DNA from: a virus
Lineage: Duplodnaviria > Heunggongvirae > Uroviricota > Caudoviricetes
Strand: one strand, 5' to 3'
IMG/VR virus record: IMGVR_UViG_2706794691_000016
DNA: 5,696 nucleotides
The notes beneath the pieces are model-generated. The model worked only from the letters and a program-made list of their open reading frames with translations. It was not told the DNA's origin and did no database searches. Shown here in pieces: positions 1 through 5,696 of this stretch. Within the stretch, counting starts at the first letter, position 1. Every line of letters starts with the position of its first letter. Made by a program: the position numbers and the translations under genes.

Positions 1-122
1 CAGAATGCATAAACTAAAAGTAAAACAAATAGTTATACGAAAAACAACCATATTTATTCTATCTTCTCCTCTAATCAACATATCAATTATGTGTTTCATA
101 ACAGCTTGACATAACCCTCCAA

Positions 123-145
123 AAGATGCATTTTTAATGCATGTT
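123..145 (+). promoter_or_regulatory. Putative NsrR-type operator: AAGATGCATTT-t-TAATGCATGTT, an 11-1-11 imperfect inverted repeat, just upstream of the DUF1971 gene
   Basis: Seen in sequence: two ATGCAT cores in inverted-repeat context at 123-133 and 135-145. A TTGACA -35-like hexamer lies at 106-111. From memory the NsrR consensus is AAnATGCATTT-n-AAATGCATnTT and E. coli yeaR is in the NsrR regulon. Not verified by scoring. Confidence 0.45.
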
Positions 146-160
146 TTGGAGGAGGTGGTT

Positions 161-577
161 ATGACACACAAGAGAATTCCTAAAGATTGGGTAATCAAAC
201 GCTCAACTCCGTTCTTCACAAAAGAGAACGTACCTTCAGCGTTATTAACACATCATAATACAGCAGCAGGTGTTTTTGGGCAGTTGTGCGTAATGGAAGG
301 CACTGTAACATATTATGGTTTNNNNNNNNNNNNNNNNNNNNNNNNNNNNNNNNNNNNNNNNNNNNNNNNNNNNNNNNNNNNNNNNNNNNNNNNNNNNNNN
401 NNNNNNNNNNNNNNNNNNNNNNNNNNNNNNNNNNNNNNNNNNNNNNNNNNNNNNNNNNNNNNNNNNNNNNNNNNNNNNNNNNNNNNNNNNNNNNNNNNNN
501 NNNNNNNNNNNNNNNNNNNNNNNNNNNNNNNNNNNNNNNNNNNNNNNNNNNNNNNNNNNNNNNNNNNNNNNTTGTAA
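161..577 (+). CDS. DUF1971 domain protein (YeaR-like, tellurite-resistance-related family)
   Basis: ATG at 161 preceded by GGAGGAGG (148-155) with a 5-nt spacer. Visible N-terminus MTHKRIPKDWVIKRSTPFFTKENVPSALLTHHNTAAGVFGQLCVMEGTVTYYG resembles E. coli YeaR as I recall it (TRSTPFw, GV.. L.VM.G.V.Y.GY pattern). The 3' end lies in or just after the 322-571 mask; 577 is the first visible in-frame stop, so the end is uncertain. The ORF-track start at 137 is rejected because it lacks an RBS and sits inside the operator. Confidence 0.6.
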   Translation: MTHKRIPKDWVIKRSTPFFTKENVPSALLTHHNTAAGVFGQLCVMEGTVTYYGXXXXXXXXXXXXXXXXXXXXXXXXXXXXXXXXXXXXXXXXXXXXXXXXXXXXXXXXXXXXXXXXXXXXXXXXXXXXXXXXXXXXL

Positions 578-689
578 ATATATTGGTTCTACATTGACAG
601 GAGACTTCAACCATAAGAAGTAATCTGAATACTTGAGCAATAAATTTACTTAAGATTAATGAGCGCACCTTGCCGGACAAAGATAAACC

Positions 690-708
690 AAGGTAACACC
701 TTTTTTCT
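690..708 (+). terminator. Weak candidate intrinsic terminator: AAGGT-aac-ACCTT hairpin followed by TTTTcT
   Basis: 5-bp stem, 3-nt loop, then a T-tract, downstream of the DUF1971 gene. The stem is short and AT-rich, so this is weak. Confidence 0.2.
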
Positions 709-1127
709 AGCCAGTATGTAATCAATCAGAAAGCCGCTCCATAAGAACAACAGCAAGACAATAAATTGCCATTACAGCCGCAATAGCCAGCGCACATTTG
801 AGAACCAGCACGACAACCCCCTGTATTAGACGCACACCAGTCCTGATAAATATGAGGCTGTCTCGTCAGTGATTCAATACAACTATTGGGTATAGTTTCT
901 GTGATTTTATTCTGTAGAAATGGAACACAACAACCAGTCACCACCAGCACTTCCTTAAATGCTCTAAGTCAGAAACAAGCCAACATTTTAGTCCGCTTTG
1001 AGCGATCTGCAGACATTGCTAGCAGCCTTCTGTGTGAATTCTCAGGGAGCAGGTCGGCATAGCATCACGTTGAGGCTCTTACCCTACTTGTTCACACCAA
1101 CCCTAACTCCACAGACTGATTCATAAA

Positions 1128-2024
1128 TTAGTAATCTGCGTGTTTCGCACTTTTCAGAAATGCTTTCATATTTTCATTAGGTCGCTCAATTTCGAAGTTA
1201 CTTCCATATAACTCTTGTAATTTTGGCCATAACTTACTTAATAACCCTCTCCTGCGATAAAATGGATGTATCCAAACGGTAGATAGGTACGGAGAATTTG
1301 CATTTGAATTGTTTATTGTGACCAGCCCAACTAAACATTGTCGATAACCACTATTATCCATTGATTGTATTTCTTCGACGAATGGATACGCGATTACATC
1401 AGTCCAACCATGATCGGTTGTATCCCATTGCATTCCGTCATGACATTCCTTCGACTGATAGCGGCGTAAAGCTACACACGCGAGCTTTTGCCAATCTGGA
1501 GAATTAATTGTGATCTCTTCATCGTATGACGCGCCTATTGGAGCGGGTATTGGTCTGATTAATCCAGCATGGCATTCATCATAGAACTTCATGNNNNNNN
1601 NNNNNNNNNNNNNNNNNNNNNNNNNNNNNNNNNNNNNNNNNNNNNNNNNNNNNNNNNNNNNNNNNNNNNNNNNNNNNNNNNNNNNNNNNNNNNNNNNNNN
1701 NNNNNNNNNNNNNNNNNNNNNNNNTCTTAAGAGTTTAATTAAGTTAATACAAGCTTCTTCACTAGTCTTGCCGTTGATGCGAAGTATGTTAGGACTAAAG
1801 TAATATTCATCCATATCAGGGAATGCAGCTTCGCAAAACTCCTGTACATAATTTAGCACCTGGATTCTACAGAGATCATCATAGCTGGTAATAACTAAGG
1901 GGGTATCTTCATTACTATTATGATTATCAATAATGCAATCTATAGCGAGACTTACTGCTTTGCGTATCACTTCAGTTGAATCTAACGACTCTAAAAATTT
2001 TGTCTTTCGTGTGCGAATATCCAT
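1128..2024 (-). CDS. Hypothetical protein P3 (298 aa) with a GNAT-acetyltransferase-like C-terminal region and an unrecognised N-terminal region
   Basis: Single open frame on both sides of the 1594-1724 mask. ATG at 2024-2022 with an AGGT SD-like element 4 nt upstream, starting 15 nt after the P2 stop. C-terminus ...VWIHPFYRRRGLLSKLW...NENMKAFLKSAKH resembles GNAT motif A and the C-terminal N..A..FY.K motif by eye only. Two ECH-G motifs (DECHAG, KECHDG) about 43 residues apart. Confidence 0.7.
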   Translation of the reverse strand: MDIRTRKTKFLESLDSTEVIRKAVSLAIDCIIDNHNSNEDTPLVITSYDDLCRIQVLNYVQEFCEAAFPDMDEYYFSPNILRINGKTSEEACINLIKLLRXXXXXXXXXXXXXXXXXXXXXXXXXXXXXXXXXXXXXXXXXXXXMKFYDECHAGLIRPIPAPIGASYDEEITINSPDWQKLACVALRRYQSKECHDGMQWDTTDHGWTDVIAYPFVEEIQSMDNSGYRQCLVGLVTINNSNANSPYLSTVWIHPFYRRRGLLSKLWPKLQELYGSNFEIERPNENMKAFLKSAKHADY

Positions 2025-2039
2025 GTATGACCTGCGCTA

Positions 2040-2602
2040 TTAAAATTCATGAATGAACGGTTTGTCATCTGGTTGCAAAATGGTGGTTTTATTCGTTGCT
2101 ACATTTAAACTGTTGTAGAGCATAATTGCCAGGTTCGATGCATTTTCAATCAGCGTTTCAAGATCCTGGTCTGTAATCACTACGAGGTTCCCTTCTTTAT
2201 CCTTTCCACCACGATGCACTAAGTGATTTCGATTGAGGGTTGCCAATTCAATAGCTTCTATCGGACAGTCTTTTTGTACTTTTATATCGAATGTAGCTTC
2301 ATAGCGGTCGATTACCTTTTTAGTGCTATGCCAGCTTGCACTGATCAAGTGTTCCTTGATTGACCTGATTAGCTCTCCCCTAATTTTCTCGATGGGTTCA
2401 CCCTTGAAAGGCAACGCAGCAATATCTTTGCTTACTTTAAATTCAGTCTTACCTTTTTCTATACAATTGGCTATGTAGACATCATCTTTCTCTATAGAAT
2501 TAATGAATAGCTCAACATAAAGCGTTTCCAAAGCTGTAATAACATTCGTGTAGAGCAAACTAAGCAAGTGGTTTTTTTGCTGTTGTTCAGTTTTATCTTT
2601 TG
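2040..2602 (-). CDS. Hypothetical protein P2, C-terminal 186 aa visible, containing a candidate HEPN-type Rx4H motif (RNHLVH, codons at 2214-2231)
   Basis: 186-codon open frame in AT-rich DNA ending at TAA 2040-2042; the N-terminus is inside the 2603-2852 mask. Motif context ...ELATLNRNHLVHRGG... fits the R-[N]-x3-H signature of HEPN RNases. The family call is a motif-level inference only. Confidence 0.65.
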
Positions 2603-2852
2603 NNNNNNNNNNNNNNNNNNNNNNNNNNNNNNNNNNNNNNNNNNNNNNNNNNNNNNNNNNNNNNNNNNNNNNNNNNNNNNNNNNNNNNNNNNNNNNNNNN
2701 NNNNNNNNNNNNNNNNNNNNNNNNNNNNNNNNNNNNNNNNNNNNNNNNNNNNNNNNNNNNNNNNNNNNNNNNNNNNNNNNNNNNNNNNNNNNNNNNNNNN
2801 NNNNNNNNNNNNNNNNNNNNNNNNNNNNNNNNNNNNNNNNNNNNNNNNNNNN

Positions 2853-3072
2853 CATAGCCACCTTCTCTACTTTCATACGGACAAGCATTTGCCGGATCTT
2901 CAAAGTTTTCAAAGAACCAGTTTTTCATTACTTCGAGTTGATCTTTTTTGCTTATGTATTTTAAAGATTTTAGTGGAACTTTCTTTCCATTAACCTCGAA
3001 AACAATTTTCACGATGTAACGCTCCCTTGTATCAATTGCGCAACTATTATACCACAGCGAAATACAGGGCAT
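2853..3072 (-). CDS. Hypothetical small protein P1 (N-terminal 73 aa visible; 3' end within or just past the 2603-2852 mask)
   Basis: ATG at 3072-3070 preceded by AAGGAGG with a 6-nt spacer. Translation MPCISLWYNSCAIDTRERYIVKIVFEVNGKKVPLKSLKYISKKDQLEVMKNWFFENFEDPANACPYESREGGY. Under a length-preserving mask it is in a different frame from P2, so it is either a separate upstream gene or there is a frameshift. The first visible in-frame stop is at 2593. Confidence 0.5.
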
Positions 3073-3110
3073 AACCTGCCTCCTTAAACTAACATACCAT
3101 GAGCCAGCAA

Positions 3111-3136
3111 TGTCCGCTATTGGCACAAAGCGGACA
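3111..3136 (-). promoter_or_regulatory. Perfect 8-bp inverted repeat TGTCCGCT-N10-AGCGGACA upstream of P1, next to a TTGACA hexamer on the coding strand; candidate operator or promoter element
   Basis: Seen in sequence in the 137-nt gap between the gene Y stop (3211) and the P1 start (3072). The function is inferred. Confidence 0.25.
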
Positions 3137-3210
3137 ACCACGCTAGCTCTCCCCTGTGCCAGAAAAATGTCAATTTACATATGAACTAATGCTCTTTGAT
3201 CTAGTAACGT

Positions 3211-3627
3211 CTATAAATACCGAAGATTTCCTTGATAAAATGCCAGTACACGTTTCATAACTTCACTCTTCCGGCACTCGCGACAGATTATGTTCTGACG
3301 CCTGTCATAGCGGCGTATTTCTCCGTCTGGTAATGACCAGATAAGGTCAGGATCAACCACAACCGTTTTTTTCACCTTTGCCCTGGATAGTTTTTTGCGG
3401 GCGTTTTTCCAATCCTTACGAGCCTGTTCAGACGGGAATAACCCATAGCCAGAGTTGTATACATCGCCACTGGCAACCAACTCTCTGGCAAGAATGCTCA
3501 TCAGATATCTTGTCGCACCTGTCTTGGCCTCCAGTTGCCTTAACGTCTCGCGCCCACTCTGGCGTACCAACTCAACAACCTGCTCCTTAATTTTTTCACG
3601 CTCTTCCTGTGTAAAAACTTTTGCCAT
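3211..3627 (-). CDS. Hypothetical prophage protein Y (138 aa) with a possible helix-turn-helix region and a basic C-terminal half
   Basis: ATG at 3627-3625 with GGAGG 5 nt upstream; stop TAG at 3213-3211. Translation MAKVFTQEEREKIKEQVVELVRQSGRETLRQLEAKTGATRYLMSILARELVASGDV... Lies immediately downstream of gene X in the replication-module operon. No family recognised. Confidence 0.65.
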   Translation of the reverse strand: MAKVFTQEEREKIKEQVVELVRQSGRETLRQLEAKTGATRYLMSILARELVASGDVYNSGYGLFPSEQARKDWKNARKKLSRAKVKKTVVVDPDLIWSLPDGEIRRYDRRQNIICRECRKSEVMKRVLAFYQGNLRYL

Positions 3628-3642
3628 AAGCGCCTCCGGCAA

Positions 3643-4203
3643 TCACTTTTCCGACACAATACGACTGGAGGAATCGACAATCTGTCGGACAATATCCCGG
3701 TGCTTGTTCAGCTCCCGCAGCGCGGCGCAGACTCGCTCCCACTTCTGGACATGATTTTTCGCCCGACGCAGTTCGCGGTTTGCCATATGCAGCGATGGTA
3801 AAACTAGGTCATCCGCTTGCGTTTCAGTAAACGATGGCAGCGACTGCACAATGTCCGCCACAGTTTCTGTTTTAATATCTTCCTGTGTTGCCGCTTCCTG
3901 TACTGGTAACGCAACACCGGCTGGCTGAGGAANNNNNNNNNNNNNNNNNNNNNNNNNNNNNNNNNNNNNNNNNNNNNNNNNNNNNNNNNNNNNNNNNNNN
4001 NNNNNNNNNNNNNNNNNNNNNNNNNNNNNNNNNNNNNNNNNNNNNNNNNNNNNNNNNNNNNNNNNNNNNNNNNNNNNNNNNNNNNNNNNNNNNNNNNNNN
4101 NNNNNNNNNNNNNNNNNNNNNNNNNNNNNNNNNNNNNNNNNNNNNNNNNNNNNNNNNNNNNNNNNNNNNNNNNNNNNNNNNNTTCCGGCAGTTCTGCCTG
4201 CAT
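3643..4203 (-). CDS. Hypothetical prophage protein X (C-terminal 96 aa visible; start at or upstream of 4203)
   Basis: Open frame ending at TGA 3645-3643, 15 nt before the gene Y start. Visible C-terminus ...LHMANRELRRAKNHVQKWERVCAALRELNKHRDIVRQIVDSSSRIVSEK. An ATG (MQAELPE) sits at 4203-4201 but the frame stays open upstream into the mask, so the true start is unknown. Confidence 0.55.
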   Translation of the reverse strand: MQAELPEXXXXXXXXXXXXXXXXXXXXXXXXXXXXXXXXXXXXXXXXXXXXXXXXXXXXXXXXXXXXXXXXXXXXXXXXXXXXXXXXXXXXPQPAGVALPVQEAATQEDIKTETVADIVQSLPSFTETQADDLVLPSLHMANRELRRAKNHVQKWERVCAALRELNKHRDIVRQIVDSSSRIVSEK

Positions 4204-4476
4204 TGGCTGTTCCTGCTGAACGTNNNNNNNNNNNNNNNNNNNNNNNNNNNNNNNNNNNNNNNNNNNNNNNNNNNNNNNNNNNNNNNNNNNNNNNNNNNNN
4301 NNNNNNNNNNNNNNNNNNNNNNNNNNNNNNNNNNNNNNNNNNNNNNNNNNNNNNNNNNNNNNNNNNNNNNNNNNNNNNNNNNNNNNNNNNNNNNNNNNNN
4401 NNNNNNNNNNNNNNNNNNNNNNNNNNNNNNNNNNNNNNNNNNNNNNNNNNNNNNNNNNNNNNNNNNNNNNNNNAAT

Positions 4477-5208
4477 TCACCCATCGNNNNNNNNNNNNNN
4501 NNNNNNNNNNNNNNNNNNNNNNNNNNNNNNNNNNNNNNNNNNNNNNNNNNNNNNNNNNNNNNNNNNNNNNNNNNNNNNNNNNNNNNNNNNNNNNNNNNNN
4601 NNNNNNNNNNNNNNNNNNNNNNNNNNNNNNNNNNNNNNNNNNNNNNNNNNNNNNNNNNNNNNNNNNNNNNNNNNNNNNNNNNNNNNNNNNNNNNNNNNNN
4701 NNNNNNNNNNNNNNNNNNNNNNNNNNNNNNNNNNNNNNNNGATAGCTGCCGCTAAGTGATTCTTCCCGGTACCAGGTTTTCCGCTGAACGCAAAATTTGT
4801 ACACCCGGTCATCAGTTCATCGGCGATGGATTTCGCCTGGCTTAACGCGTATCGCTGGCCGTCGTTCTGCACCTGGTAATTCGCAAACGAGCATTTACGG
4901 TGCAACGGCTGGATGCCTGAGCGATTCAGAATTTTTTCCACCCGCAACTGGCGATTNNNNNNNNNNNNNNNNNNNNNNNNNNNNNNNNNNNNNNNNNNNN
5001 NNNNNNNNNNNNNNNNNNNNNNNNNNNNNNNNNNNNNNNNNNNNNNNNNNNNNNNNNNNNNNNNNNNNNNNNNNNNNNNNNNNNNNNNNNNNNNNNNNNN
5101 NNNNNNNNNNNNNNNNNNNNNNNNNNNNNNNNNNNNNNNNNNNNNNNNNNNNNNNNNNNNNNNNNNNNNNNNNNNNNNNNNNNNNNNNNNNNNNNNNNNN
5201 NNNNNNNN
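4477..5208 (-). CDS. DnaC-like (IstB/AAA+) replicative helicase loader of a prophage replication module
   Basis: Visible segment 4741-4956 translates to NRQLRVEKILNRSGIQPLHRKCSFANYQVQNDGQRYALSQAKSIADELMTGCTNFAFSGKPGTGKNHLAAAI. This closely parallels E. coli DnaC as I recall it (FNRSGIRPLHQNCSFENYRV...FIFSGKPGTGKNHLAAAI), including the Walker A motif. Both ends are masked: 4477 is the first visible in-frame stop, which would make the C-terminus about 38 aa shorter than E. coli DnaC, and the start is somewhere in 4957-5208. Confidence 0.75.
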   Translation of the reverse strand, partial: XXXXXXXXXXXXXXXXXXXXXXXXXXXXXXXXXXXXXXXXXXXXXXXXXXXXXXXXXXXXXXXXXXXXXXXXXXXXXXXXXXXXNRQLRVEKILNRSGIQPLHRKCSFANYQVQNDGQRYALSQAKSIADELMTGCTNFAFSGKPGTGKNHLAAAIXXXXXXXXXXXXXXXXXXXXXXXXXXXXXXXXXXXXXXXXXXXXXXXXXXXXXXXXXXXXXXXXXXXXXXXXXXXXXXXXXXXXXDG

Positions 5209-5601
5209 CAATAGCCTCCGGCTCGAATTTTTTAGACGCTCGTTTTTGGCGAGGGGGAGATCAGTATTTAGATCTTCCTCTTCCTCTTCCTCTGGTAACG
5301 CTTTTTGATCCGTTTGTGTAACGCTGGCAGCGTTACCTTTTCGTTTCAGTTCGCGTATTTTTGTTACTCGCTCGTTTGTAACCGCCCGTTTTTTTTAGAG
5401 CTTTTTCCGTTATGACGTTCAAAGTTAGGTAGAGAAAGCCCTCCGTCATTTTCGACCAGCCATCCAACCTGAATTAACGCATCAGCAAAACCAGACATAA
5501 AAGTGATGCGATCTATTGCACTTTTTGTAACGCCGCGAGCGTTACAATCTGCATTACCGTCTATCATTTGTTGATCCGCCCATGCCCAGAAGCGAATAAC
5601 C
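5209..5601 (-). pseudogene. Lambda O-like replication initiator gene, 5'-truncated by an IS insertion and frameshifted at an A8 tract
   Basis: Frame 0 (5601-5367) reads VIRFWAWADQQMIDGNADCNARGVTKSAIDRITFMSGFADALIQVGWLVENDGGLSLPNFERHNGKSSKK and stops at 5366-5364. The -1 frame opens inside the A8 tract (plus-strand T8 at 5389-5396) and runs open into the mask as KKRAVTNERVTKIRELKRKGNAASVTQTDQKALPEEEEEEDLNTDLPLAKNERLKNSSRRLL with no start codon. The ...QGG..P...NEGKSPKTR region of lambda O, as I recall it, aligns across the shift. Sits immediately upstream of the DnaC-like gene. Confidence 0.55.
5295..5382. repeat. Iteron-like repeats inside the O-like gene (candidate prophage origin): GTAACGCT at 5295-5302, palindrome GTAACGCT-GGC-AGCGTTAC at 5318-5336, GTTAC at 5363-5367, GTAAC at 5378-5382, interspersed CGTTT(G) motifs
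   Basis: Repeats seen directly in the sequence. By analogy to lambda, where ori lies within gene O and consists of dyad-symmetric iterons next to an AT-rich tract; here the T8/A8 tract and flanking AT-rich bases are adjacent. Confidence 0.35.
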
Positions 5602-5696
5602 TGAGGTAGCCTGAGTTTAACGGACACTCCTTCCTGAAATAGAATGGCATCAGAAGGAGCTAATAATGAGCAGAAAAACCCAACGTTACTCTAAAG
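5602..5696 (+). mobile_element. Left end of an IS3-family insertion sequence (IS600-like by recollection), truncated by the window edge
   Basis: Sequence beginning TGAGGTAGCCTGAGTTTAACGGACAC (IS3-family ends start with TG), followed by a strong SD (AAGGAG, 5654-5659) and an ATG at 5666 encoding MSRKTQRYSK, which matches my memory of the IS600 OrfA N-terminus. The O-like gene is cut off at this junction. Only about 95 bp is visible and the right end is absent, so the exact boundary and identity are unconfirmed. Confidence 0.5.
5666..5696 (+). CDS. IS3-family transposase OrfA, first 10 codons only (MSRKTQRYSK), continues beyond the window
   Basis: ATG at 5666 with AAGGAG and a 6-nt spacer. N-terminal peptide consistent with IS3-family OrfA (IS600-like) from memory. 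Confidence 0.45.
   Translation, partial: MSRKTQRYSK

What the first reader, a model, noticed from the sequence alone, without database searches (positions are those of the whole stretch)
5209..5627. Prophage replication initiator disrupted twice, indicating a defective prophage
The O-like initiator has lost its N-terminus to the IS insertion at about 5602, and its frame breaks at the A8 tract (0-frame stop at 5364-5366, with the -1 frame continuing for at least 62 codons). Together with the uncertain DnaC-like C-terminus, this argues that the replication module is non-functional and the prophage cannot replicate autonomously, while the adjacent cassette P1-P3 may be retained for host benefit.
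Basis: partly seen in the sequence, partly recalled or inferred. Interest (0 to 1): 0.5.

Follow-up and report, generated by a model that had tools for sequence, protein, structure and literature searches.

The report
Dead phage replication gene in Shigella
This is the broken remnant of a phage DNA-replication starter gene in a decayed Shigella sonnei prophage, hit three times rather than twice, which is ordinary for Shigella, and the stretch that places it beside the neighbouring gene cassette is probably an assembly error.

Summary
On the minus strand, 5209-5601 is the 5'-truncated remnant of a 262-aa lambdoid replication-initiator gene.

Three lesions separate it from intact E. coli copies:
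- An IS600 insertion. The IS end starts at 5602 and cuts codon 36.
- A6→A8 (+2) at 5389-5396, which gives the stop at 5364-5366.

Only 48 of the "62 open codons" are native.

The lesions are real, not read errors. The exact 87-aa junction product is on 492 contigs named Shigella sonnei. All 14 S. sonnei loci inspected carry all three lesions.

The protein is not lambda O. It has no Pfam Phage_rep_O or DUF1376 hit. It matches PHROG 2509 and has a YdaU/DnaT-like C-terminal domain.

In long S. sonnei assemblies the pseudogene lies in an IS-riddled remnant next to modABC. The cassette at 1128-3062 belongs to a separate Rac-like prophage with intact ydaT-ydaU-ydaV. The window joins the two loci inside a masked ydaV. 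That hybrid occurs on only four S. sonnei draft contigs, with two different switch points inside identical stretches. An assembly chimera is the likely cause.

Verdict: an ordinary, already annotated pseudogene of low interest.

The parts
5602..5696 (+). Left end of IS600 (IS3 family). The terminal inverted repeat TGAGGTAGCCTGAGTTTAACGGACAC starts at 5602. The orfA start codon is at 5666-5668 (MSRKTQRYSK...). The element runs off the window.
   Evidence: 100% identity to copies annotated 'IS3-like element IS600 family transposase'. Sequence read.
5599..5601 (-). Right-hand copy of the 3-bp target-site duplication (GGT on the coding strand, nt 105-107 of the intact gene, codons 35/36).
   Evidence: In L004 the other flank of the same IS600 ends ...GGGAAGGT. 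This side starts GGTTATTCGC. The intact gene reads GGGAAGGTTATTCGC.
5209..5601 (-). Visible part of the 5'-truncated replication-initiator pseudogene (YdaU-family / PHROG 2509), native codons 36 to about 168. The last ~284 nt of the gene lie under the mask at 4957-5208.
   Evidence: 96.8% nucleotide identity to an intact 789-bp E. coli gene. The only differences are 12 gap columns and 1 mismatch. The masked 3' part is lesion-free in the twin locus L009.
5389..5396 (-). A8 tract (T8 on the plus strand). Intact genes have A6 encoding K104-K105, so this is a +2 frameshift.
   Evidence: Alignment A1. A8 is present in all 14 S. sonnei loci inspected.
5364..5366 (-). Premature TAA stop reached in the shifted frame. 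It ends the 87-aa junction ORF at 5364-5627.
   Evidence: The exact 87-aa product is on 492 contigs, all named S. sonnei.
5252..5258 (-). Scar of a 10-bp deletion. One TCCCCCTAAA unit was lost between TCCCCCT direct repeats (native codons ~149-152). This is a second frameshift. +2 and -10 sum to -8, so the frame is not restored.
   Evidence: Alignments. The deletion junction is present in all 14 S. sonnei loci and absent from intact genes.
5272..5289 (-). (GAGGAA)3 hexamer repeat encoding the acidic EEEEEE linker. The copy number varies: 2, 3, 6 or 7 in related loci.
5318..5336 (.). Perfect palindrome GTAACGC-N5-GCGTTAC, a candidate initiator or origin binding site inside the gene.
   Evidence: Two matches in the window against 0 expected. 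A third copy lies upstream of the start codon in intact loci. Spacing is 207 and 192 bp.
5527..5545 (.). Second copy of the GTAACGC-N5-GCGTTAC palindrome.
4741..4956 (-). 5' part of the DnaC-like helicase-loader gene ydaV, of the allele that belongs with the pseudogene ('p2' type). The Walker A motif GKPGTGKN is visible.
   Evidence: 100% identical to the ydaV next to the pseudogene in long S. sonnei assemblies, and 94.4% to the Rac-type ydaV. Pfam IstB_IS21 and Bac_DnaA hits.
4224..4740 (-). Masked middle and 3' part of ydaV. The switch from p2-type to Rac-type sequence lies here. It is the junction of two different prophage loci.
   Evidence: Discriminating-site analysis. Everything left of it (1-4223) is 100% Rac-like S. 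sonnei prophage.

Best explanation
Window 5209-5601 (minus strand) is a dead copy of a lambdoid-prophage replication-initiator gene in Shigella sonnei.

The intact gene. It encodes 262 aa and sits between ydaT and the DnaC-like loader ydaV. Its unclassified N-terminal domain is inferred to bind DNA. An acidic, repeat-rich linker follows. The C-terminal domain is 81% identical to that of Rac YdaU and homologous to the C-terminal domain of the host primosome protein DnaT. By analogy with O/P and DnaT/DnaC, the N-domain would recognise the origin. Candidate sites are three TGTAACGC-N5-GCGTTACA palindromes in and just upstream of the gene. The C-domain would then hand DnaB over through YdaV. This mechanism is inferred, not shown.

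The copy here carries three independent lesions:
1. A simple IS600 transposition into codon 36, with a 3-bp GGT duplication. It separates the promoter, start codon and first 35 codons from the rest.
2. A +2 slippage in a homopolymer (A6→A8).
3. A 10-bp slippage deletion between direct repeats.

Both small indels lie in the repeat-rich linker. All three lesions are fixed across S. sonnei assemblies.

True setting. The pseudogene sits in a scrambled prophage remnant bounded by IS600 copies next to int'-acrZ-modABC.

The window's layout. The window fuses this pseudogene, through ydaV, to DUF1627-DUF977-cassette-TehB. That layout is most likely an assembly path swap. ydaV has two paralogues that are about 94% identical, and they share stretches of 80 and 142 identical bases.
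For: Identity and lesions:
- 690 E. coli genomes carry the homologue, and it is annotated as a single 789-bp CDS, 'phage replication initiator YdaU family protein'.
- The alignment shows the IS, the +2 and the -10 lesions.
- IS600 identity is 100%. The TSD is reconstructed from L004.

Fixation:
- The exact 87-aa junction product is listed in 481 blocks and on 492 contigs, named S. sonnei.
- All 14 loci checked carry A8, the 10-bp deletion and the same junction.

Family:
- PHROG 2509, E 1e-89 over the full length.
- The C-terminal domain is 81% identical to Rac YdaU.
- Homology to the DnaT C-terminal domain in PDB 2ru8 and 9zbt, E about 1e-4.
- Palindromes at 0 expected by chance.

True context:
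- The seven longest contigs returned (984 kb to 4.86 Mb), plus 11 similar places not shown, have IS600-'initiator-ydaV-DUF977(140)-118aa-QueH-hok-Rem-DUF1367'-IS600-int'-acrZ-modABC.
- 397 of 481 blocks have contigs of 2-5 kb, which fits the 4.4-kb inter-IS600 segment.

Chimera:
- The window is 100% identical to scaffold L009.
- L009 has a single N exactly where the Rac ydaV homology ends and IS600 begins.
- L009 contains the Rac-type ydaV 3' end twice.
- The hybrid YdaV is on only 5 contigs, none longer than 55 kb.
- Two switch points exist, at nt 346-425 and nt 484-625. Each lies inside a perfectly shared stretch.
- The reciprocal hybrid occurs only on 20 draft contigs of 80 kb or less.
- 24 of 25 contigs carrying the S. 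sonnei DUF1627 allele show an uninterrupted Rac module.
Against: - No reads were available. The homopolymer length and the ydaV join rest on comparison of assemblies only.
- Two of the four S. sonnei contigs with the window's arrangement (L026, L027) are gap-free, come from other assemblies, and start exactly at the IS600 boundary. A real recombinant sublineage is therefore not excluded.
- L028 shows the same hybrid YdaV beside an intact initiator in another strain. It may be a natural mosaic allele.
- The role of the palindromes and the DnaB-loading mechanism are inference. No experiment on this family was found.
- Only one block with a contig above 1 Mb holds the exact S. sonnei DUF1627 allele. 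I did not see the Rac region in the same complete genomes that carry the pseudogene.
Confidence: 0.85

Rival explanations
1. The window's arrangement is real. In a minority S. sonnei sublineage, homologous recombination between the two ydaV paralogues placed the dead initiator directly upstream of DUF1627-DUF977-cassette. The lesions are as described, but the adjacency is biological.
For: Four S. sonnei contigs from different assemblies show it. Two of them are gap-free and start at the IS600 edge. The reciprocal hybrid protein also exists in S. sonnei drafts. Shigella genomes rearrange often (PMC7373316).
Against: - There are two different crossover points among four contigs, both inside perfectly identical stretches.
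- Hybrids are never seen on contigs longer than 80 kb, whereas parental alleles are on at least 1000 contigs, including complete genomes.
- In L009 the same scaffold also contains Rac-5'+Rac-3' ydaV. That is incompatible with a reciprocal exchange.
- Sister scaffolds L012, L013 and L031 join the same pieces in other orders, with N gaps.
Confidence: 0.15
2. The A8 tract is a sequencing or assembly error. The gene is broken only by the IS.
For: Homopolymers are error-prone. One partial S. sonnei-labelled protein (P0002) reads KSSKKKRAV, which implies an in-frame A9 variant without the IS. The tract length therefore does vary.
Against: A8 is found in all 14 loci from draft and complete assemblies. 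The exact frameshifted 87-aa product is on 492 contigs, and a 67-aa alternative start call is on 73 more. The independent 10-bp deletion breaks the frame in any case.
Confidence: 0.03
3. The short ORF is the native product and the downstream frame is a separate gene, or the A-tract is a programmed frameshift or phase-variable switch.
For: The tract length is polymorphic, with A6, A8 and an inferred A9.
Against: - Homologues are one continuous 260-266-aa ORF with A6.
- The N-terminal nine residues of the 87-aa ORF are encoded by IS600 sequence.
- The downstream frame has no start of its own and is broken again by the 10-bp deletion.
- The promoter and start codon lie on the far side of a 1.26-kb IS.
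Confidence: 0.02

Closest known systems
Rac prophage replication module ydaT-ydaU-ydaV (E. coli K-12 and relatives)
   Same: The gene order is the same: ydaT, initiator, DnaC-like ydaV, then DUF1627/DUF977. The C-terminal 124 residues are 81% identical to YdaU. PGAP names some copies 'phage replication initiator YdaU family protein'.
   Different: The N-terminal ~135 residues are unrelated to YdaU. Rac YdaU hits Pfam DUF1376 at 2.7e-26 and this protein has no hit. The copy here is a triple-lesion pseudogene.
Phage lambda O (initiator) / P (loader), with ori inside O
   Same: The position after cro/cII-type genes and before the helicase-loader gene is shared. So is the two-domain logic with a repeat-rich linker region and repeated DNA motifs inside the initiator gene.
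   Different: There is no sequence similarity (BLASTP E 1.5) and no Pfam Phage_rep_O hit. The loader is DnaC/IstB-like, not P. The motifs are three palindromes about 200 bp apart, not four tandem iterons.
Host primosome pair DnaT-DnaC
   Same: The C-terminal domain (170-262) aligns with the DnaT C-terminal domain, including the terminal ...NTVS-PDS-IPPGFRG motif (PDB 2ru8, 9zbt). The gene lies directly upstream of a dnaC-like gene, as in dnaTC (my own knowledge of that operon).
   Different: It scores only 16 bits against the NCBIfam DnaT equivalog, whose cut-off is 201. The N-terminal half is unrelated. The context is a phage.
IS-driven pseudogenisation in Shigella (Hawkey et al. 2020, PMC7373316)
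   Same: IS600 is one of five IS expanded in all Shigella. At least 5% of CDS are pseudogenes, inactivated by IS or other mutations. This locus shows exactly that pattern.
   Different: Nothing of substance. This particular gene is not discussed in that paper as far as I read it, and 'prophage' does not occur in its main text.

Membership tests
Lambda O-type initiators (Pfam Phage_rep_O, PF04492) | N-terminal domain matching the Phage_rep_O profile, or similarity to lambda O | tested here: not met
   There is no Pfam hit at E<=1 for the fragments or for the intact 262-aa homologue. BLASTP against lambda O gives a best E of 1.5. One weak link exists: PHROG 678 'replication initiation O-like' matches residues 77-236 at 7e-26. 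That region is the linker and C-domain also shared with YdaU.
Lambda O-type initiators | Tandem origin iterons within the initiator gene | tested here: inconclusive
   Lambda has four adjacent 18-bp iterons (annotation). Here there are three 19-21-bp palindromes spaced 207 and 192 bp apart, one of them upstream of the gene. Binding was not tested.
YdaU / DUF1376 (PF07120) | N-terminal DUF1376 domain | tested here: not met
   Rac YdaU from L009 hits PF07120 at 2.7e-26. The intact homologue of this gene gives no hit.
YdaU family (PGAP product name) | Shared C-terminal domain and position upstream of ydaV | tested here: met
   81% identity over 124 C-terminal residues. The gene order ydaT-initiator-ydaV is seen in L001, L002, L003 and L022.
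PHROG 2509 'replication initiation protein' | Full-length profile match | tested here: met
   The intact homologue matches residues 1-262 to profile positions 1-277 of 277, E 1.2e-89. The window remnant is 96.8% identical in DNA to that homologue.
DnaT (primosomal protein 1) | Equivalog-level match to NCBIfam NF002770 | tested here: not met
   16.2 bits against a cut-off of 201, covering only the last 19 residues. The C-terminal domain is homologous at E about 1e-4 to PDB 2ru8 and 9zbt. This is a shared domain, not orthology.
IS600 (IS3 family) | Terminal sequence and orfA identical to IS600, with a 3-bp target duplication | tested here: met
   100% identity over 95 nt to annotated IS600 copies. 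The GGT duplication is reconstructed from both flanks in L004.
Pseudogene | Intact orthologues exist, and the copy has disabling lesions relative to them | tested here: met
   682 E. coli genomes have near-full-length matches, annotated as one CDS in every copy inspected. Three lesions are present.
Programmed ribosomal frameshift / phase-variable gene | Two-frame architecture at the slippery tract conserved among homologues | tested here: not met
   Homologues have A6 and one frame. The downstream frame is broken again by the 10-bp deletion.

The most novel reading that the evidence does not exclude
The intact relatives of this pseudogene (PHROG 2509) may define an uncharacterised class of lambdoid initiators. 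In this reading, an N-terminal domain with no Pfam model recognises three widely spaced TGTAACGC-N5-GCGTTACA palindromes, one before the gene and two inside it. This domain is fused to a DnaT-like C-terminal domain that recruits DnaB through the DnaC-like YdaV. That would be a phage origin built on borrowed replication-restart (primosome) parts rather than on the O/P scheme. A smaller alternative is that the hybrid ydaV join is a real, recurrent in-vivo recombination between prophage remnants in S. sonnei.
Probability: 0.3. Interest if true: 0.35.

Novelty: already known. Interest (0 to 1): 0.12.

Why it matters
It matters little biologically. IS600 insertions and slippage frameshifts in prophage remnants are the expected face of Shigella genome decay (PMC7373316), and this ORF is already deposited hundreds of times as 'putative bacteriophage protein [Shigella sonnei]'.

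There are three practical lessons:
- Conclusions about "the prophage" and its "adjacent cassette" cannot be drawn from this window. It probably stitches together two prophage loci through a paralogous ydaV.
- The cassette's own Rac-like prophage keeps an intact ydaT-ydaU-ydaV module.
- The N masks hide the join and are not length-faithful.

One minor side value: the intact family links phage initiators to the DnaT C-terminal domain and has candidate origin palindromes that could be tested.

Tried and rejected
Searches that found nothing:
- Pfam on the 87-aa ORF, the 62-aa frame and a repaired 133-aa fragment gave no hits (one search failed on stop codons).
- An exact scan of genome contigs for the gene/IS600 junction gave 0 matches.
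- A megablast of the junction against 5,426 complete E. coli genomes found no genome with the junction. Matches stop at 5602.
- PADLOC on the two cassette proteins gave nothing significant.
- A literature search for ydaU/ydaV found only Rac regulatory papers and no functional work on this initiator.

Technical failures:
I worked around it with a protein id from the listing of cluster members.

Ideas rejected:
- Homopolymer sequencing error.
- A native short ORF with a separate downstream gene.
- Programmed frameshift.
- A compensating pair of indels (+2 and -10 sum to -8, not a multiple of 3).
- An IS600-mediated deletion of the N-terminus. In long assemblies the 35-codon 5' fragment sits intact on the other side of the IS with a 3-bp duplication.
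- A large deletion under the 4957-5208 mask. The apparent 185-nt shortfall against L001 is due to masks that do not keep length.

Full report
**What is in the sequence**

The window holds seven N runs. The target lies on the minus strand.

- A mechanical ORF at 5364-5627 encodes 87 aa. Its first nine residues are read from the inverted-repeat end of an insertion sequence.
- Window 5602-5696 is 100% identical to copies annotated as the IS3-family element IS600.
- Homology to related genes ends at 5601/5602.
- A T8 run (A8 on the coding strand) lies at 5389-5396.
- The 0-frame stop lies at 5364-5366.
- Another frame stays open for 62 codons down to the mask at 5208.

**Comparison with intact genes**

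Megablast of 5209-5601 finds the gene in 690 of 5,426 complete E. coli genomes, and 682 of those matches are near full length. None reaches 99% identity over the full length.

In the records inspected the region is a single 783-789-bp CDS. It lies between a ydaT-family gene and the DnaC-like ydaV. It is labelled 'hypothetical protein' or 'phage replication initiator YdaU family protein'.

Aligning the window with two intact copies shows three differences:
- The first 104-107 nt are replaced by IS600.
- The homopolymer is A8 where intact genes have A6 (codons K104-K105).
- A 10-bp unit, TCCCCCTAAA, is missing between TCCCCCT direct repeats (scar 5252-5258, native codons ~149-152).

+2 and -10 sum to -8, so the frame is not restored. 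Of the 62 open codons only 48 (KKRAV...DLPL) are native. The last 14 are out of frame, and the native reading continues in the third frame.

The gene is therefore disrupted three times. Apart from these lesions it differs from the closest intact copy by a single synonymous base. That suggests recent decay.

**Are the lesions real?**

The exact 87-aa junction product requires both this IS600 junction and A8.
- The assembly index lists it in 481 blocks.
- It is on 492 contigs, under names such as 'putative bacteriophage protein [Shigella sonnei]'.
- A 67-aa version from an alternative start call is on 73 more contigs.
- All 14 S. sonnei loci I fetched carry A8, the 10-bp deletion junction and the same IS600 junction. 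They include seven contigs of 984 kb to 4.86 Mb.

A read error in one assembly is excluded.

In L004 the other flank of the IS holds the intact first 35 codons. The two flanks share GGT. This was a simple IS600 transposition with a 3-bp target duplication, not a deletion.

**What the gene is**

The intact 262-aa protein has no Pfam hit. It is neither Phage_rep_O nor DUF1376. It has no similarity to lambda O.

- It matches PHROG 2509 'replication initiation protein' over its full length (E 1e-89).
- Its C-terminal 124 residues are 81% identical to Rac YdaU, while the N-terminal halves are unrelated.
- Residues 170-262 are homologous to the C-terminal domain of the primosomal protein DnaT, including the terminal IPPGFRG motif (PDB 2ru8 and 9zbt, E about 1e-4). 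The score is far below the DnaT equivalog cut-off.

Three palindromes, TGTAACGC-N5-GCGTTACA, lie about 200 bp apart. One is upstream of the start codon and two are inside the gene (window 5318-5336 and 5527-5545). None is expected by chance.

I infer a modular initiator. The N-domain would bind the origin, and the DnaT/YdaU-like C-domain would engage the DnaC-like YdaV and DnaB. This mechanism is inference. I found no experimental work on it.

Both small indels lie in the linker-coding part, which is rich in simple repeats. The same region holds a (GAGGAA)n repeat that varies between 2, 3, 6 and 7 copies among related loci. This is consistent with replication slippage.

**Context and the problem with the window**

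The unmasked pieces of the window are 100% identical to L009, a 54.9-kb scaffold of GCA_001248565.1. The N runs do not keep true length. For example, 252 N stand for 437 nt. Using L009, the rest of the pseudogene has no further lesion and the DnaC-like ORF is an intact 248 aa.

The seven longest contigs returned, plus 11 similar places not shown, place the pseudogene elsewhere. The layout is cI-cro-ydaT'-initiator'(41 aa)-IS600-'initiator-ydaV-DUF977(140 aa)-118 aa-QueH-hok-Rem-DUF1367'-IS600-int'-acrZ-modABC. In that locus ydaT is also frameshifted.

Most blocks (397 of 481) carry the ORF on 2-5-kb contigs. That fits the 4.4-kb segment between the two IS600 copies.

Window 1-4223 covers TehB-like, the 333-aa and 340-aa genes, DUF977(138 aa) and DUF1627. 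It is 100% identical to a Rac-like S. sonnei prophage. In 24 of 25 contigs read, DUF1627 there is preceded by intact Rac-type ydaV (248 aa), ydaU (DUF1376, 285 aa) and ydaT. E. coli Rac prophages show the same order.

The ydaV in the window's twin is a hybrid. It is p2-type up to nt 483 and Rac-type from nt 626. Several observations point to an assembly artefact:
- L009 has a single N exactly between the last base shared by the two ydaV alleles and the IS600 end.
- L009 contains the Rac-type ydaV 3' part twice.
- Sister scaffolds join the same pieces differently, with N gaps (L012, L013, L031).
- The hybrid protein is on only five contigs, none longer than 55 kb.
- One of the five (L028) has an intact initiator and belongs to another strain.
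- The four S. sonnei contigs use two different switch points, each inside a stretch identical in both paralogues (80 nt and 142 nt).
- The reciprocal hybrid is on 20 draft contigs of at most 80 kb.
- The S. sonnei global collection was sequenced with reads of mean length 59 bp (PMC7373316). I could not verify that these assemblies come from that collection.

I conclude, at roughly 75-80% confidence, that the adjacency of the pseudogene to the cassette is an assembly path swap through paralogous ydaV. A real, rare recombinant is the alternative.

**Verdict on the interpretation**

'O-like' is right only by analogy.

The inference that the cassette's prophage cannot replicate, or that the cassette is retained beside a dead module, is not supported. 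The cassette's own prophage has an apparently intact replication module.

IS600 expansion and pseudogene accumulation in Shigella are well documented (PMC7373316). This is an ordinary, already annotated feature, so interest is low.

Noticed in passing
window 1128-3062 (minus strand); L009 12811-14850: The two-gene cassette sits in a variable cargo slot of Rac-like prophages, between DUF977 and the TehB-like gene. The 340-aa protein has a weak, sub-threshold HEPN/RES N-terminal domain 1 hit (E 2.5e-4). The 333-aa protein has a weak, sub-threshold GNAT hit (E 9e-4). In L014, L020 and L028 the same slot holds genes with a PDDEXK_GAPS4 domain, so it looks like a defence-island hotspot. PADLOC gave nothing for either protein.
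   Followed up: partly
window N runs, e.g. 4957-5208, 1594-1724: The masked stretches are not length-faithful. 252 N stand for 437 nt, 131 N for 236 nt, and 250 N for 240-265 nt in the identical locus L009. Distances across masks in window coordinates are therefore meaningless.
   Followed up: yes
window 5272-5289; L006-L011 around 10330-10380: A (GAGGAA)n repeat encodes the acidic linker and varies in copy number. There are 3 copies here and in L004/L005, 6 in L006-L010, 7 in L011, and 2 in E. coli L022/L028. It behaves as a VNTR inside a pseudogene.
   Followed up: partly
L004 8150-8580: In the true S. sonnei locus the neighbouring ydaT is also a pseudogene. A 1-nt deletion near codon 14 leaves a 101-aa ORF where the intact gene has 140 aa.
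   Followed up: partly
protein P0002: A partial 136-aa protein labelled S. sonnei (2 contigs, up to 2.2 kb) has the intact N-terminus without IS600. It reads KSSKKKRAV, which implies an in-frame A9 tract. This may be a second, undisrupted copy in some isolates, or contamination.
   Followed up: no
protein P0019: S. flexneri carries a 113-aa truncated form of the p2-type DnaC-like YdaV, ending ...GKPDTG inside the Walker A motif. It is on 330 contigs. This looks like independent decay of the same replication module in another Shigella species.
   Followed up: no
L009 8762; L012 8928, 14123, 17546; L013 8736-8772, 15545; L031 62, 5960: Several draft scaffolds with CXF*/CWX* accession prefixes join IS600 ends and ydaV fragments through single-N or short-N gaps. 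Each does so in a different order. Prophage synteny taken from these scaffolds is unreliable.
   Followed up: partly
L001 6119-6142, 6326-6349, 6518-6541; window 5318-5336, 5527-5545: Three near-identical 21-bp palindromes, TGTAACGC-N5-GCGTTACA, are spaced 207 and 192 bp apart in and just upstream of the initiator gene. They are candidate origin or operator sites. In S. sonnei the IS600 separates the upstream copy from the other two.
   Followed up: partly
intact homologue residues 170-262 (L001 5720-6000): The C-terminal domain shared by this initiator and Rac YdaU is homologous to the C-terminal domain of host DnaT, ending in the same IPPGFRG motif. The gene pair initiator-ydaV mirrors dnaT-dnaC.
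   Followed up: partly
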